DNA of 64,000 bases from Actinomycetes bacterium (GCA_021794655.1 JAJYQJ010000111.1:16462-80461), one strand, 5' to 3'; numbered from the stretch's first letter, positions 11,550 to 17,006 are shown. Numbers and translations: made by a program. Notes: a model not told the origin generated them from the sequence alone.

Positions 11550-12524
11550 CTAACGCTGGACCTGACCTCGGACCTGGGCGAGGTCGGCTTCGACCATCAT
11601 CGTTACGAGCTCTGCGAAGTCGACCTCGGGCTCCCAGCCGAGCTCGTCGCGGGCCTTCGTCGGATCGCCGACTAAGAGGTCGACCTCTGCGGGACGCAAG
11701 AATCGCTCGTCGACCCCGACGTGCTCCGCCCAGTCGAGGCCGGCGACGGAGAACGCGAGTTCACACAGCTCGCGCACCGAGTGGGTCTCGCCGGTCGAGA
11801 TGACGAAGTCACTCGGCTTGTCTTGCTGGAGCATAAGCCACATCGCGCGGACGTAGTCCGCGGCGTACCCCCAGTCGCGCTGGGAGTCGAGGTTGCCGAG
11901 CAAGAGCTTCTCCTGGAGTCCACAGGCGATCCTCGCGACGCCGTATGTCACCTTACGGGTGACGAATTCGAGACCGCGGCGTGGCGACTCGTGGTTGAAC
12001 AGGATCCCGGAGGACGCGTGCAGGTCGTAGCTCTCGCGGTAGTTGACCGTTATCCAGTGCCCGTAGACCTTCGCGACTCCGTAGGGACTGCGCGGGTAGA
12101 ACGGGGTCGACTCGTTCTGGGGTACTTCGAGCACCTTTCCGAACATCTCGGACGAACTCGCCTGGTAGAACCGGATCTCGGGGTCGACGGTTCGGATCGC
12201 GTCGAGCAGACGGGTCACACCGAGAGCGGTCGTCTCGCCGGTGAGGACCGGCTGACTCCAGCTCGTCTGCACGAACGACTGGGCGGCGAGGTTGTAGACC
12301 TCGTTGGGCCGGTGGTCACGCAAGACGCCGATAAGGGAGACCTCGTCCAAGAGGTCTCCGGCGACGAGCTCGATGTCGTCTTGGATCGCGGCGATCCGCT
12401 CGAAGTTGACGGTGCTCGAACGCCGCACCATCCCGATGACGTCGTACCCCTGCTCGAGCAGAAACTCCGCGAGGTAAGAACCGTCTTGACCCGTAACTCC
12501 TGTGATGAGGGCCCGTTTAGCCAT
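11550..12524 (-). CDS. gmd: GDP-mannose 4,6-dehydratase
   Basis: [23 protein letters not shown], the YGVAKVY catalytic motif, and Gmd-like sequence along the full length. Confidence 0.93.
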
Positions 12525-12578
12525 CTATTGGTCTCCCGCCTCTCTAACTCGTCTAACTCGTGGTCGTGTTCGCGACGT

Positions 12579-14048
12579 CTAAATCCTGTCCATCACGGTA
12601 GCGCAACCGTGGAGGCCGCTCAGGTCCACCGAGGCAAACTGGGAGTCCGTCGGCTCCGCGCAGCAGAACCACGGCTCTGTGAGGTGCGGACGGTCCTGCG
12701 CTGGAACGTTCGAACGCAGCGGTGAGTCGGCGGAGCGAGCAGTTGCGCGACGACTCTGAGACCGACGATGGGGAGACGTCGCCTCCAGCTCGGCCCTCGC
12801 CGTCTCAAACGCACGCTCCGGTGTCCAGTTGGACTCCGCGGCCTCCTCTGCGAGCTCGCCGAAGCGCTCCTGAAGAGCGTCGAGCCGGGGATCGACGGCC
12901 GTCCACGACCACGCGAGACGCTCCTCGTCGTAAGGACCGAGGATGCCGTCCAAGCGCCCCGAAGTGATCAGGAGCGACCCGTCGGGAACGAGGAGGCGAA
13001 TCGTCATCTGCACGAAATCGACGTTGCCGACGAGGTCGCAACGATCGATGAGGTCAAACAAGTTCGTCAAGTCCTCAAACGTCGTCCACGGCGTGAACGG
13101 CAGGAGTGACGGCCGGGGCTCTATTCCAACACGACGCAGTACCCCGACGGCCTCGATCTCGTCTTCGACACTGTGGCCTTTGTCCAAGATCTCTAGGATC
13201 TTGTCACTCGCCGCCTCGAACGCGGACACGACGAAGAGGCAGCCTGCGTCCGCGAACTCCTCGAAGAGCGCGCGGTGACGAAGTATGTGCTCCACCTTCG
13301 CGGTCACGTCGAACGTGAGATCAGGAAACGTCGAGTGCACCGCGTCGACTACCCGTCGCGCCTGATGGGGACCGTTCAAGAAGTCGGGGTCCCCGAACGT
13401 TATGTGCTCGGCTCCGAGGTCGACGAGCTGCGCGACGTCTGCGACGACGACGTCGGTGCCGACTAGGCGAGTCCTACCGTCGTAGACGACGGGAACCGGG
13501 CAGTGCCGGCACCTGTGCGCGCACCCGTGGCTCGCTTCTACGTAGCCGGCGAGCCGCAACCGGCCGAACGCGCTGAGGTGGGCGTAGCGTTCCAACGGCG
13601 GCAACAGGTGACGAGCGGGAAGGACGAACTCGGTTCGCCCGAGCGACACACGCACGCTCTCTACGCCGTTCCCGTCGTGATGAGCTTCCAACGCGTTCGC
13701 CCAATCGATGAGCGCCGGCTCGTACTCTCCCGCGATCACGTGATACGCGACGTCACCTCGTGAGTCCCGCCTCCCGACCGCCGCGTAGAGACCGTAGAGG
13801 CAGATCTTTGGATGCGAGACGATCGTTTGGATCTTCGCGACGAGTCCGAGAGCGAGACGTAACGCGGTGTGCATCGGAACCGATATCGCGATCGCGTCCG
13901 ACCATAGAACTGCGTCGACGTCGAGATCCTCGACCGACAGATCGAGGCATCGAACGTCGTGTGAAGCAGCCAAGAGGGCGGCGGCGGGCGACGCGACGTG
14001 GAGAGGCTGGTGGCCGAGCTCGTAGGTCGACACGAGCAAGATACGCAT
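12579..14048 (-). CDS. B12-binding-domain radical SAM protein, CUAEP/CCAEP-tail family
   Basis: Radical SAM CxxxCxxC (CAHRCRHC), an N-terminal Rossmann-like B12-type domain (MRILLVSTYELGHQP), and the motif WFCCAEPT near the C-terminus. Confidence 0.8.
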   Translation of the reverse strand: MRILLVSTYELGHQPLHVASPAAALLAASHDVRCLDLSVEDLDVDAVLWSDAIAISVPMHTALRLALGLVAKIQTIVSHPKICLYGLYAAVGRRDSRGDVAYHVIAGEYEPALIDWANALEAHHDGNGVESVRVSLGRTEFVLPARHLLPPLERYAHLSAFGRLRLAGYVEASHGCAHRCRHCPVPVVYDGRTRLVGTDVVVADVAQLVDLGAEHITFGDPDFLNGPHQARRVVDAVHSTFPDLTFDVTAKVEHILRHRALFEEFADAGCLFVVSAFEAASDKILEILDKGHSVEDEIEAVGVLRRVGIEPRPSLLPFTPWTTFEDLTNLFDLIDRCDLVGNVDFVQMTIRLLVPDGSLLITSGRLDGILGPYDEERLAWSWTAVDPRLDALQERFGELAEEAAESNWTPERAFETARAELEATSPHRRSQSRRATARSADSPLRSNVPAQDRPHLTEPWFCCAEPTDSQFASVDLSGLHGCATVMDRI

Positions 14049-15770: not shown

Positions 15771-15779
15771 CCAACTATC

Positions 15780-17006
15780 TTAGATTGATCCGTCGACGAC
15801 GACGTCAATTAGGTCTCTCGCCTCACGCAGGGCAGCCTCGACGGCGTCTGGCGACGTCGCCCGAGCGAAGACGAAACCTAGATATCGATCTCCCTCCGGG
15901 ACCGGCCTGACCGGCCTCCCCGGCGCGACTCTCACGTCGACGCCCGTGATCCCGTCGACTTCAAGCGCTTCTCGCTCCCCCCTCAGACCGACGAAAGTCC
16001 CCGCACGTGGGATCGACAACATGAGAACTCCACTCGCCTCCTCGCTCCGCTCTATCTCGACGCGACGCCCGAGTGCCTCGGCCAAGATCAGATACTCGAG
16101 ACTCCTCCCGTCACCAAAGCGCATCGCGTTCGAGCACATCCCACCGATCGAGCGCGCCGCGATCTCGATCAGCGACGCCTTCGCATCTTTGACTCTCAGC
16201 TCCGCGTGAAGGGCGCCTTGGGTCAACCCGAGCGCTCGCACCGTCGAACGCGTCGTCTCGATCACGGCATGCAAGTCGCGTCTTGGGAGTCTCGACGGGG
16301 TGACGTAGATGCTCTCTTCGAAGAACGGACCCTCTAGTGGGTCCGGCTTGTCGAATACGGCTACGACCGAGAGGTCTCCGTCGTGCAAGATCCCCTCTAC
16401 CGCAACCTCTTGGCCGACGACGAACCGCTCGACGAGCAACGGGGTACTCGCGTCTACACCGGCGAGATCAGCGATCGATCGCACGCGCTTCGCCGCCGAT
16501 CTCGCCCCATCTCGCGTGTCAGCCCTGATCACCCCCTGGCTCCCCGATAGACACGTCGGCTTTATGACGCACGGGAGCCCGACAGATCCGACCGCTTCAT
16601 CGACCTCGTCCAAACTCGCCCCACCTCGCAGCGGAGAGAACTCGGGTTGTCGCACTTCTGCTGCGTCCAGCAGTTTCCTCATCGCAAGCTTGTCGATTGC
16701 TGCCTCAACCGACGTCCGTGAGTTATGACGCAGACCCAGTTGTTTGGATCCTTCGGCGGCAGCGACGACACCTTGGTCGTCGACCGCGACGATCGCGTCA
16801 AGTGGCGTCACCGCGTCGATCTCGACGATCGAGCGAGCGGCCGCATCCGGATCCGCTAGCGCCACCTCGACCGCCTTCGCTGTTCCCGATAGAACCGGCG
16901 GCTCATCGCACCCGACGATCACCTCCACGCCGAGAGCCCGGGCCGCGTCCAAGAAAGCCCCTGCACGGTAGCCGGTTGAGGGTAGAAGTATCAAGAGTCG
17001 CTCCAC
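15780..17006 (-). CDS. ATP-grasp domain ligase (start set at GTG 17006; the track ORF extends to 17078 and would overlap nfuA)
   Basis: Pre-ATP-grasp plus ATP-grasp layout (LPCVIKPTCLSGSQGV, VVGQEVAVEGIL, HAELRV...LIEIAARSIGG). Confidence 0.7.
   Translation of the reverse strand: MERLLILLPSTGYRAGAFLDAARALGVEVIVGCDEPPVLSGTAKAVEVALADPDAAARSIVEIDAVTPLDAIVAVDDQGVVAAAEGSKQLGLRHNSRTSVEAAIDKLAMRKLLDAAEVRQPEFSPLRGGASLDEVDEAVGSVGLPCVIKPTCLSGSQGVIRADTRDGARSAAKRVRSIADLAGVDASTPLLVERFVVGQEVAVEGILHDGDLSVVAVFDKPDPLEGPFFEESIYVTPSRLPRRDLHAVIETTRSTVRALGLTQGALHAELRVKDAKASLIEIAARSIGGMCSNAMRFGDGRSLEYLILAEALGRRVEIERSEEASGVLMLSIPRAGTFVGLRGEREALEVDGITGVDVRVAPGRPVRPVPEGDRYLGFVFARATSPDAVEAALREARDLIDVVVDGSI

What the first reader, a model, noticed from the sequence alone, without database searches (positions are those of the whole stretch)
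11550..17006. CCAEP-tail B12/radical-SAM protein in an operon-like string with an ATP-grasp ligase, an ABC-2 exporter and Gmd
The ORF at 12579..14048 has a radical SAM CxxxCxxC (CAHRCRHC), a B12-type N-domain, and the motif F-C-C-A-E-P near its C-terminus. From memory, this is the hallmark of the uncharacterised CUAEP/CCAEP-tail radical SAM (seleno)protein family, in which the first Cys can be selenocysteine. Here both positions are Cys codons with no in-frame TGA. On the same strand, with 9-54 nt gaps or 4-nt overlaps, it follows an ATP-grasp ligase and an ABC-2 ATPase/permease pair, and it precedes GDP-mannose 4,6-dehydratase. ATP-grasp plus rSAM plus dedicated exporter is the grammar of a small-molecule or peptide modification-and-export pathway, and Gmd hints at a deoxyhexose decoration. 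I found no obvious precursor-peptide ORF. The family's substrate is unknown, so the whole pathway would be new.
Basis: partly seen in the sequence, partly recalled or inferred. Interest (0 to 1): 0.6.

Follow-up and report, generated by a model that had tools for sequence, protein, structure and literature searches.

The report
ArsL-like radical SAM plus ligase pair
The window holds a genuine Cys-Cys-tailed member of an uncharacterised radical SAM family, sister to the arsenic-carbon bond former ArsL; its real conserved partner is the neighbouring amino-acid ligase, the sugar gene Gmd is an unrelated housekeeping neighbour, and the ABC exporter pair was moved in only in this species.

Summary
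ORF 12579-14048 (-) passes the curated CUAEP/CCAEP-tail radical SAM model (542.7 bits, cut-off 500). It has C176xxxC180xxC183 and a WFCCAEP tail. Its second-best family is ArsL (270 bits).

The five-gene pathway reading is only partly supported.
- **ATP-grasp ligase (15780-17006):** in 201 Acidimicrobiia genomes, 76 have both genes, 2 have the rSAM alone, 13 have the ligase alone and 110 have neither. The two co-occur even when 10-70 kb apart.
- **NfuA-like gene (17035-17703):** it lies back-to-back with the ligase almost everywhere, but occurs in every relative.
- **Gmd:** present in 28/31 relatives and never near the module.
- **ABC-2 pair:** orthologues sit beside a Zn-ADH gene in sister genera that lack the rSAM. 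In this species the pair moved about 21 kb into the ligase/rSAM junction. However, non-orthologous ABC-2 exporters abut the rSAM in two other lineages, so export is a recurrent theme.
- **Precursor peptide:** none fits.

Ligase-only genomes keep the ligase under purifying selection, so the dependence is one-way.

The most likely function is an undescribed small-molecule pathway with ArsL-type chemistry on the Cys-Cys (Cys-Sec in 29/79 relatives) arm, plus a dipeptide ligase. The product is unknown.

The parts
12579..14048 (-). CCAEP-tail radical SAM protein (489 aa, P0001), Cys-Cys form; core component
   Evidence: NF040546 scores 542.7 bits against a cut-off of 500; ArsL NF040542 scores 270 bits, below its 450 cut-off. 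AF2 gives pLDDT 89 and pTM 0.90. The fold is nearest OxsB and AprD4.
13500..13523 (-). CxxxCxxC [4Fe-4S]/SAM motif (C176, C180, C183)
   Evidence: Translation. These Cys are invariant in 80 aligned sequences.
12651..12668 (-). Tail motif F461-C462-C463-A464-E465-P466, inside the conserved block L456xExWFC[C/U]xEPxxxQ470
   Evidence: DNA read. C462 and C463 are the only other invariant Cys. Position 463 is TGA (Sec) in 29 of 79 relatives. The tail segment 441-460 is modelled at pLDDT 90-93.
15780..17006 (-). ATP-grasp L-amino-acid-ligase-type enzyme (408 aa; the ORF is open to 17078); core component
   Evidence: Pfam ATP-grasp_4 95 bits, LAL_C2 57 bits, ATPgrasp_N 38 bits. Closest solved structures are the L-amino acid ligase BL00235 (3VOT, E 1.5e-29) and BacD. 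Co-occurrence with the rSAM: 76 both, 2 rSAM only, 13 ligase only, 110 neither.
17035..17703 (+). NfuA-type Fe-S carrier (Cys-less A-type N-domain plus Nfu domain with a CQGC motif), divergent from the ligase across 28 nt; conserved neighbour, housekeeping gene
   Evidence: PF01106 68.5 bits; TIGR03341 99 bits, below cut-off. Divergent from the ligase in 55 of 80 loci and in 12 of 12 ligase-only genomes. Present in 31/31 relatives and single-copy here.
14865..15770 (-). ABC transporter ATPase (DrrA/ABC-2 type); species-specific insertion between ligase and rSAM
   Evidence: PF00005 100 bits. Orthologues at 71-76% identity sit beside a Zn-ADH gene in relatives without the rSAM. The ancestral slot lies on the same contig, about 21 kb away.
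14074..14868 (-). ABC-2 family permease (264 aa), partner of the ATPase
   Evidence: PF12679 29.3 bits and PF12730 26.6 bits. Orthologues at 55-63% identity occur in 7 sister genera, 6 of which lack the rSAM.
11550..12524 (-). GDP-mannose 4,6-dehydratase; adjacent but NOT part of the module
   Evidence: TIGR01472 452.7 bits against 415. Present in 28/31 relatives, never near the module.

Best explanation
The string is an evolutionary mosaic around a two-enzyme core.

**Core.** The core is an L-amino-acid-ligase-type ATP-grasp enzyme (15780-17006) and a CCAEP-tail radical SAM enzyme (12579-14048). In most carriers they form a ligase-then-rSAM operon, back-to-back with the housekeeping nfuA-like Fe-S carrier gene (17035-17703).

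**Insertions and neighbours.** In this species an existing ABC-2 ATPase/permease pair was relocated about 21 kb into the ligase/rSAM junction. Gmd and the downstream ccdA/ccm genes are unrelated neighbours.

**Inferred mechanism (not shown).** The rSAM enzyme is the sister family of ArsL. It would bind one [4Fe-4S] cluster and SAM through C176/C180/C183. Its conserved flexible tail would present the vicinal C462-C463 pair (Cys-Sec in many relatives) to the active site, holding a soft substrate atom or group. That atom could be sulfur, selenium or a metalloid, possibly as a thiol- or selenol-bound adduct. An ArsL-type SAM-derived 3-amino-3-carboxypropyl fragment, or alternatively a 5'-deoxyadenosyl-initiated radical, would then form a new carbon-heteroatom bond.

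The ligase would join the resulting (or a related) amino acid to a second amino acid. The product is a small molecule, not a ribosomal peptide, and in some lineages it is probably exported.

**Dependence is one-way.** The rSAM is almost never kept without the ligase, whereas the ligase persists and is selected without the rSAM. Two readings fit this: the ligase acts first or independently, or it is needed to neutralise a toxic rSAM product.
For: **Family and kinship**
- NF040546 is passed. ArsL is the second-best model over the whole core, model positions 1-406 of 423.
- The only invariant Cys are the cluster triad and the tail pair. Sec replaces C463 in 29/79 relatives.
- In ArsL the C-terminal Cys motif binds the As(III) substrate, and SAM is cleaved to MTA plus an ACP species.
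- The tail is modelled with high confidence against the core.

**Partnership with the ligase**
- The ligase lies directly upstream in 55-61 of 80 loci.
- Order level: 6/6 rSAM genomes have the ligase and 0/25 others do.
- Class level: 76 both, 2 rSAM only, 13 ligase only, 110 neither; Fisher p 8e-39.
- Phylum level: 27 both, 3 rSAM only, 8 ligase only, 263 neither; Fisher p 4e-28.
- Both genes are co-retained when 10-70 kb apart, including in 1-Mb streamlined genomes.

**One-way dependence**
- 13 ligase-only genomes have no CUAEP rSAM even at E 1e-5.
- 12 of the 12 examined keep the nfuA/ligase pair.
- Ligase dN/dS is 0.17 in a ligase-only genus.

**Ligase type:** best solved relatives are BL00235 (makes Met-Gly and Met-Met; PMC6920838) and BacD.

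**Mosaic structure**
- ABC pair orthologues lie elsewhere or without the module.
- The donor site is on the same contig.
- The canonical order is found in the closest relative.
- The insertion is fixed in six assemblies of the species.
- G025 has a different insertion at the same junction.
- Gmd is independent of the module.

**No RiPP precursor:** the gaps of 9, 25 and 54 nt hold no free ORF.
Against: - No biochemical datum exists for any family member. No search found a paper on the module.
- ArsL-type regiochemistry cannot be read from sequence. The enzyme may be a canonical 5'-dA generator.
- The tail has two Cys, not ArsL's three, and no arsM-like gene lies beside the module in this window (no ars gene); a generic class I methyltransferase lies two genes downstream of the rSAM in G035.
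- The co-occurrence statistics are not corrected for phylogeny.
- Ligase-only genomes show the ligase does not need the rSAM, so the reaction order is open.
- The ABC pair sits on the same strand with tight spacing, so it may have been co-opted.
Confidence: 0.6

Rival explanations
1. Four-gene pathway with a co-opted exporter. After its relocation, the ABC-2 pair exports the ligase/rSAM product (or protects the producer from it), so ligase, ATPase, permease and rSAM work as one operon in this species.
For: - The four genes share a strand with 9-nt and 25-nt gaps and a 4-nt overlap, and the insertion is fixed in six assemblies.
- Three mutually non-orthologous ABC-2 systems (ATPases 30-38% identical) abut the rSAM in three lineages: this window, the f25 Acidimicrobiia/L014 group (rSAM, then ATPase, then permease, 23-58 nt apart) and L046/L059 (divergent, 40 nt).
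- ABC_tran is the commonest Pfam family among the 98 immediate downstream neighbours (8 of 98), and there is one MFS_3 exporter.
- A rough chance expectation is about 0.3 independent adjacencies against 3 seen. This is my estimate, based on about 0.5% of genes being DrrA-like ATPases.
Against: - Orthologues of this very pair occur in 6 sister genera without the rSAM, beside a Zn-ADH gene. In G004 they are on a different contig from the module.
- Most carriers have no exporter next to the module.
- The same junction holds unrelated genes in G025.
- The count of independent lineages is a rough estimate.
Confidence: 0.3
2. One reading: ligase, exporter, rSAM and Gmd together make and export a deoxyhexose-decorated small molecule or peptide.
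For: All five genes are on one strand with short gaps.
Against: - Gmd is a highly conserved single-copy gene in 28/31 relatives whether or not they carry the module. It is on other contigs in all five module-bearing relatives and in 0/80 related loci.
- No glycosyltransferase or second GDP-sugar enzyme lies in the string.
- The ABC pair is independent in relatives.
Confidence: 0.04
3. Ligase-first pathway with canonical radical chemistry. The ligase makes a dipeptide or amide that exists on its own in ligase-only genomes. The rSAM enzyme is an add-on tailoring enzyme that uses a 5'-deoxyadenosyl radical, with the Cys-Cys/Cys-Sec tail acting as hydrogen-atom or electron donor rather than as a substrate holder.
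For: - The rSAM is a near-subset of the ligase: 2 rSAM-only against 13 ligase-only genomes.
- The ligase is under purifying selection without the rSAM.
- The CxxxCxxC motif and fold are canonical.
- Sec commonly replaces redox-active Cys (general knowledge).
Against: - The nearest characterised relative, homologous over the whole core, is the non-canonical ArsL, whose Cys tail is a substrate site.
- The distribution asymmetry is equally explained if the rSAM product is toxic without the ligase.
Confidence: 0.25
4. A second arsenic pathway. The enzyme transfers ACP to As(III) like ArsL and, with the ligase, makes an arsinothricin-type dipeptide.
For: ArsL is the second-best family (270 bits). 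Vicinal thiols bind As(III) (general knowledge). Haft links CU motifs to heavy-atom binding.
Against: - The protein fails the ArsL model (270 bits against 450).
- The tail lacks the third Cys that binds As in ArsL.
- No arsM, arsQ or other ars genes lie beside the module in this window or recur among the related loci.
- The family is kept in 1-Mb marine genomes and in 39% of Acidimicrobiia, which is broad for an arsenic antibiotic.
Confidence: 0.1
5. RiPP maturation: the rSAM and ATP-grasp modify a ribosomal precursor peptide that the ABC system exports.
For: rSAM plus ATP-grasp plus ABC exporter is a common RiPP gene grammar (general knowledge).
Against: - No free small ORF fits the 9-54 nt gaps.
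- In relatives the ligase-to-rSAM gap is too short, and no small conserved ORF cluster appears.
- The ligase is of the free-amino-acid LAL type.
- There is no RiPP recognition element, SPASM domain or PqqD hit.
Confidence: 0.03

Closest known systems
CUAEP/CCAEP-tail radical SAM (seleno)protein family, NCBIfam NF040546 (named by Haft; function unknown)
   Same: The protein passes the curated cut-off. It has the CxxxCxxC motif and the C[C/U]AEP tail. It is the Cys form of a family in which 29/79 close relatives carry Sec.
   Different: Nothing defining differs. This member has a 17-residue, low-confidence C-terminal extension beyond the model end. Its operon is interrupted by an ABC-2 pair.
ArsL (RCCLKC-tail radical SAM, NF040542), first enzyme of arsinothricin biosynthesis (arsQML)
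   Same: Homologous over the whole Rossmann-like and radical SAM core (270 bits, model positions 1-406 of 423). It has a canonical CxxxCxxC and a Cys-bearing C-terminal tail on a flexible linker, which in ArsL is the substrate (As(III)) site.
   Different: Below the ArsL cut-off. The tail is WFC[C/U]AEP with two Cys/Sec rather than RCCLKC with three. The partner is an L-amino-acid ligase, not the ArsM methyltransferase or ArsQ permease. It is far more widespread (39% of sampled Acidimicrobiia). The chemistry is untested.
L-amino acid ligases of antimetabolite dipeptide pathways (BacD/bacilysin, BL00235, RizA, TabS, DdaF)
   Same: The ATP-grasp has the LAL domain set (ATPgrasp_N, ATP-grasp_4, LAL_C2). 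It aligns end to end with BL00235 (E 1.5e-29) and with BacD. BL00235 takes Met, a 2-amino-4-(heteroatom)butanoate, at the N-terminal position (PMC6920838).
   Different: It scores far below every equivalog cut-off. It is paired with a radical SAM enzyme and an nfuA-like gene rather than with a bac/riz/tab cluster. It persists without the rSAM in about 15% of carriers.
Cobalamin-dependent (class B) radical SAM enzymes and the cobalamin-free look-alike AprD4
   Same: Same two-domain architecture by fold: OxsB E 2e-17; AprD4 TM 0.62/0.66.
   Different: The PF02310 hit is below threshold. ArsL homologues and AprD4 are reported not to bind cobalamin (PMC12931638).

Membership tests
CUAEP/CCAEP-tail radical SAM (NF040546) | Whole-protein score at or above the curated cut-off (500 bits) | tested here: met
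   542.7 bits, E 6.6e-163, model positions 1-467 of 468; 542.5 bits in the genome search.
CUAEP/CCAEP-tail radical SAM (NF040546) | CxxxCxxC radical SAM cluster motif | tested here: met
   C176-A-H-R-C180-R-H-C183; invariant in 80 sequences.
CUAEP/CCAEP-tail radical SAM (NF040546) | C-terminal C-[C/U]-A-E-P tail | tested here: met
   W460-F-C-C-A-E-P466, both Cys encoded by TGC. Relatives split 50 CC and 29 CU.
ArsL / RCCLKC-tail radical SAM (NF040542) | Score at or above the cut-off (450 bits) | tested here: not met
   270.1 bits.
ArsL / RCCLKC-tail radical SAM (NF040542) | Three-Cys CCxxC tail that binds As(III) | tested here: not met
   Only C462 and C463 are conserved in the tail. C482 lies in a non-conserved extension.
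ArsL / RCCLKC-tail radical SAM (NF040542) | Genomic link to arsM/arsQ (arsQML) | tested here: not met
   No ars-type hit among 15 neighbouring proteins, and none among the recurrent neighbour clusters.
ArsL / RCCLKC-tail radical SAM (NF040542) | Reductive cleavage of the SAM C-gamma-S bond (MTA plus ACP species) | not testable with these tools
   Needs an anaerobic enzyme assay.
L-amino acid ligase (ATP-grasp, LAL type) | ATP-grasp fold with the LAL N- and C-terminal domains | tested here: met
   PF13535 95.4 bits, PF18603 57.1 bits and PF18130 38 bits, all above their gathering scores. 3VOT E 1.5e-29 over residues 58-428.
L-amino acid ligase (ATP-grasp, LAL type) | ATP-dependent ligation of two free amino acids | not testable with these tools
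   Needs a substrate screen.
Cobalamin-dependent (class B) radical SAM | B12-binding domain (PF02310) and cobalamin use | tested here: inconclusive
   PF02310 scores 24.4 bits against a gathering score of 32.1. The fold resembles both OxsB (binds B12) and AprD4 (does not). ArsL homologues are reported to be cobalamin-free.
RiPP biosynthetic cluster | Precursor-peptide gene beside the modifying enzymes | tested here: not met
   No ORF of 20 aa or more lies free of the large genes between 11460 and 17100. There is no conserved small-ORF cluster in 80 loci.
NfuA-type Fe-S carrier | Cys-less A-type N-domain plus Nfu C-domain with CxxC | tested here: met
   Full-length match to TIGR03341 (residues 21-217; 99 bits, below the equivalog cut-off of 269). 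PF01106 scores 68.5 bits. The only Cys are in GGGCQGCG.
GDP-mannose 4,6-dehydratase (TIGR01472) | Score at or above the cut-off (415 bits) | tested here: met
   452.7 bits.

The most novel reading that the evidence does not exclude
The CCAEP/CUAEP enzymes are a second and far more widespread class of canonical-fold radical SAM enzymes with ArsL-type chemistry. They would attach a SAM-derived 3-amino-3-carboxypropyl group to a sulfur, selenium or metalloid atom held on the Cys-Cys/Cys-Sec arm, making a new heteroatom amino acid. The partner ligase would convert this into a dipeptide, either an antimetabolite pro-drug or a thiol/selenol-type metabolite. Several lineages, including this one, would export the product through independently recruited ABC-2 pumps. 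The rSAM's one-way dependence on the ligase would then reflect self-protection against a toxic free amino acid.
Probability: 0.3. Interest if true: 0.8.

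Novelty: new variant of a known kind. Interest (0 to 1): 0.5.

Why it matters
ArsL is so far the only canonical-fold radical SAM enzyme shown to split SAM at the C-gamma-S bond. Its sister family has no known function. 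Yet it occurs in 78 of 201 sampled Acidimicrobiia genomes and 30 of 301 sampled Actinomycetota genomes. It is also found in Thermoleophilia and Chloroflexota, and is kept even in 1-Mb streamlined, low-GC genomes.

Three results give a concrete and testable pathway hypothesis:
- the true partner is an L-amino-acid ligase;
- the dependence is one-way;
- exporters are recruited repeatedly.

The hypothesis is rSAM plus ligase, assayed with soft-atom acceptors. The results also tell annotators that Gmd, and probably the ABC pair, should not be drawn into a 'cluster' here. If ArsL-type chemistry is confirmed, it would reveal a new carbon-heteroatom bond-forming reaction and a new, environmentally common metabolite.

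Tried and rejected
- **Promoter/terminator scan:** the scan of 11000-18000 gave no promoter-like site and one terminator-like site inside the permease gene, fewer than in shuffles. It is uninformative.
- **Rfam:** the scan of 9000-21000 at E 0.1 found nothing, so there is no riboswitch clue.
- **Small ORFs:** none is free of the large genes.
- **PDB by sequence:** only AprD4, at E 0.0017; no ArsL structure is available.
- **Literature:** one paper uses 'CUAEP' in this sense, and it says the family is unknown. There is nothing on rSAM plus ATP-grasp plus NfuA and nothing useful on DUF169.
- **nfuA-like gene as a dedicated component (rejected):** it is present in 31/31 relatives, is single-copy here, and keeps its position next to the ligase even where the rSAM is absent.
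- **Replacement enzyme downstream of the ligase in ligase-only genomes:** none is conserved.
- **DsrE-like and DUF169 accessory genes:** both recur next to the rSAM in other lineages but are absent from this genome.
- **Sec machinery:** no tRNA-Sec was detected in this 95%-complete genome, which fits the Cys form.
- **Not done:** I did not fetch ArsL sequences for a direct alignment or tree. The kinship rests on HMM scores.

Full report
**1. What is in the sequence.**

All genes of the finding lie on the minus strand:
- ATP-grasp, 15780-17006. The ORF is open to 17078, but orthologues and gene callers start at the GVG-to-M position that gives 408 aa.
- ABC ATPase, 14865-15770.
- ABC-2 permease, 14074-14868.
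- Radical SAM, 12579-14048.
- Gmd, 11550-12524.

The gaps are 9 nt, a 4-nt overlap, 25 nt and 54 nt.

The rSAM protein (P0001) carries C176AHRC180RHC183 and W460-F-C-C-A-E-P466. Both tail Cys are TGC codons. It scores 542.7 bits on NF040546, whose curated cut-off is 500. Its second-best family is ArsL (NF040542) at 270 bits, covering model positions 1-406 of 423.

Gmd, the ATP-grasp (ATP-grasp_4, LAL_C2, ATPgrasp_N), the ATPase and the permease all pass their models. The permease passes only narrowly.

The 'B12-type' label needs softening. PF02310 is below threshold. The AF2 model (pLDDT 89, pTM 0.90) is nearest OxsB and the cobalamin-free AprD4. A 2026 review states that ArsL homologues and AprD4 do not bind cobalamin (PMC12931638).

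The host is an uncultured Acidimicrobiales-type genome of 2.7 Mb, 95% complete.

**2. What is conserved around the rSAM.**

In 80 related loci from Acidimicrobiia, Thermoleophilia and Chloroflexota, only two neighbours recur:
- The ATP-grasp, directly upstream on the same strand (55-61 loci).
- An NfuA-like gene divergent from the ATP-grasp (55 loci).

Gmd is near the rSAM in none of the loci, and the window-type permease in none.

The closest relative (66% identity) has NifU, then ATP-grasp on the opposite strand, then rSAM, with nothing in between. Six assemblies of the same species keep the window's order.

**3.

| Gene | 31 order-level relatives | Source |
|---|---|---|
| rSAM | 6 genomes | |
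| ATP-grasp orthologue | the same 6, no others | |
| NfuA-like | 31/31 | |
| Gmd | 28/31, 75-88% identity, always on a different contig from the module | |
| ABC-2 permease orthologue (55-63% identity) | 7 sister genera, 6 of which lack the rSAM | |

The NfuA-like gene is single-copy in this genome. In G004 the ABC pair lies on contig C4 while the module, ligase directly followed by rSAM, is on C42.

In those relatives the pair follows a Zn-ADH-like gene, often with a TetR gene, and faces an 875-aa gene. In this genome the ADH orthologue (78% identity) and the 875-aa orthologue both lie on the same contig just outside the window. A P450-like gene, a ferredoxin and an amidohydrolase sit between them instead of the ABC pair.

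So the pair was relocated about 21 kb into the ligase/rSAM junction. The same junction holds a different 3.4-kb insertion (hydrolase, DegV, PlsY) in G025.

**4. Wider statistics and a one-way dependence.**

| Sample | Both | rSAM only | Ligase only | Neither | Fisher p | Source |
|---|---|---|---|---|---|---|
| 201 Acidimicrobiia genomes | 76 | 2 | 13 | 110 | 8e-39 | |
| 301 genomes across the phylum | 27 | 3 | 8 | 263 | 4e-28 | |

These p-values are not corrected for phylogeny. The 2 rSAM-only Acidimicrobiia genomes are both only 83-84% complete. The 3 rSAM-only phylum genomes include a fragmented gene (G278) and a contig-edge gene (G389).

In many genomes the two genes are 10-70 kb apart yet both retained, for example G142, G122 and G035.

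The 13 ligase-only genomes include a closed one. They have no CUAEP rSAM even at E 1e-5. All 12 that were examined keep the divergent nfuA/ligase pair. None has a conserved replacement gene. Their ligases are intact, with dN/dS 0.17 at dS 0.37 within one ligase-only genus.

Hence the rSAM depends on the ligase but not the reverse. Either the ligase acts first or independently, or it is needed to handle a harmful rSAM product.

The family is also kept in 1-Mb, 34%-GC genomes. There it has the tail WFCCAEP and is translationally coupled to an F420-type LLM oxidoreductase and a flavin reductase. This argues against a dispensable luxury function in that lineage.

**5. The tail.**

In 80 aligned sequences the only invariant Cys are the cluster triad and C462/C463. 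In 29 of 79 relatives position 463 is an in-frame TGA followed by the conserved AEPTxxQ, meaning Sec. This genome has no detectable tRNA-Sec.

AF2 places residues 441-460 with pLDDT 90-93, between a weak linker and a disordered extension. This is consistent with a tail that docks on the core.

In ArsL the C-terminal CCxxC binds As(III). Removing it abolishes C-As bond formation but not SAM cleavage to MTA. Haft notes that CU motifs are rare and cluster in proteins that handle heavy atoms.

**6. The ligase.**

Its best solved relatives are the L-amino acid ligase BL00235 (E 1.5e-29, end to end) and BacD. BL00235 makes Met-Gly and Met-Met (PMC6920838). The ligase is therefore of the free-amino-acid type, which argues for a small molecule.

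No free small ORF exists in the gaps. No Rfam element is present.

**7. The exporter question.**

The window's ABC pair is not a conserved part of the module. However, the f25 clade of Acidimicrobiia and L014 have rSAM, then ABC ATPase, then ABC-2 permease(s), with 23-58 nt gaps. L046 and L059 have a divergent ABC-2 pair 40 nt upstream.

The three ATPase types are only 30-38% identical to each other, so they were recruited independently.

Among the 98 immediate downstream neighbours, the most frequent Pfam families are:
- ABC_tran, 8
- DUF169, 7
- DsrE, 4 (16 by clustering)
- one MFS_3 exporter

By my rough estimate about 0.3 independent ABC-2 adjacencies would be expected by chance, against three seen. 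I therefore give 0.3 to the reading that the relocated pair has been co-opted as an exporter here.

**8. Verdict.**

The rSAM is a true, ordinary Cys-form member of a named but uncharacterised family. Gmd is excluded.

The mechanism I commit to is ArsL-like carbon-heteroatom bond formation on the Cys-Cys arm plus dipeptide ligation. It is inferred, not shown.

Earlier notes of this scan reached the same ArsL/ligase reading for other genomes. I treated them as leads. My assignment came, before I read them. Their mention of ABC-2 neighbours prompted the check.

Noticed in passing
window 7620-11459 (-): Directly downstream of Gmd lies a system I cytochrome c maturation block: CcdA/DsbD-type membrane protein (10626-11459), CcmA, CcmB, CcmC, a 63-aa ORF, CcmE, then CcmF. 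The 500-aa ORF 9862-11364 is an over-extended CcmA frame that overlaps ccdA.
   Followed up: partly
window 20153-22801 (-) and 19599-20195 (-): An 882-aa protein has a C-terminal MprF-type flippase/LPG_synthase_TM domain and a weak kinase-like stretch (residues 434-493). Its start (window 22801) lies upstream of, and its 3′ end overlaps by 43 nt, a low-molecular-weight phosphotyrosine phosphatase gene (19599-20195, minus strand). The pairing is unusual and was not examined.
   Followed up: no
G000 contig C143:2725-9919 (outside the window, upstream of its start): This is the ancestral slot of the ABC-2 pair, between the Zn-ADH orthologue and an 875-aa gene. It now holds a P450-like gene, a 71-aa ferredoxin and an amidohydrolase. 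It is the apparent donor site of the relocation.
   Followed up: partly
L112 (G035:C1) 5957-10077: In a 1-Mb, 34%-GC Acidimicrobiia genome the CCAEP rSAM sits in a tight operon: MTHFS, F420-type LLM oxidoreductase (Rv3520c family), rSAM, flavin reductase, class I methyltransferase. The rSAM junctions overlap by 4 nt. The nfuA/ligase pair is 69 kb away.
   Followed up: partly
L013, L015, L016, L019, L028, L029 and others; L042, L046, L056, L059, L146: A DsrE/TusD-like 121-aa gene lies convergent to the rSAM in 16 Solirubrobacterales-type loci. DUF169 genes lie directly after the rSAM or after nfuA in about 13 loci. Both are rare families and so are likely accessory partners. Neither is present in this genome.
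   Followed up: partly
L116-L127 (12 of the 13 ligase-only genomes: G042, G047, G086, G090, G106, G154, G166, G170, G185, G194, G209, G226; the 13th, G051, was not fetched): These genomes keep the divergent nfuA/ATP-grasp pair with an intact ligase under purifying selection, but have no CUAEP rSAM anywhere. The ligase's function when alone is unexplained.
   Followed up: yes
L113 7417-8037; L124 6253-6897: A thiamine diphosphokinase-like gene follows the ligase in two distant lineages, and lies 3.7 kb downstream in two more. This may be old synteny.
   Followed up: no
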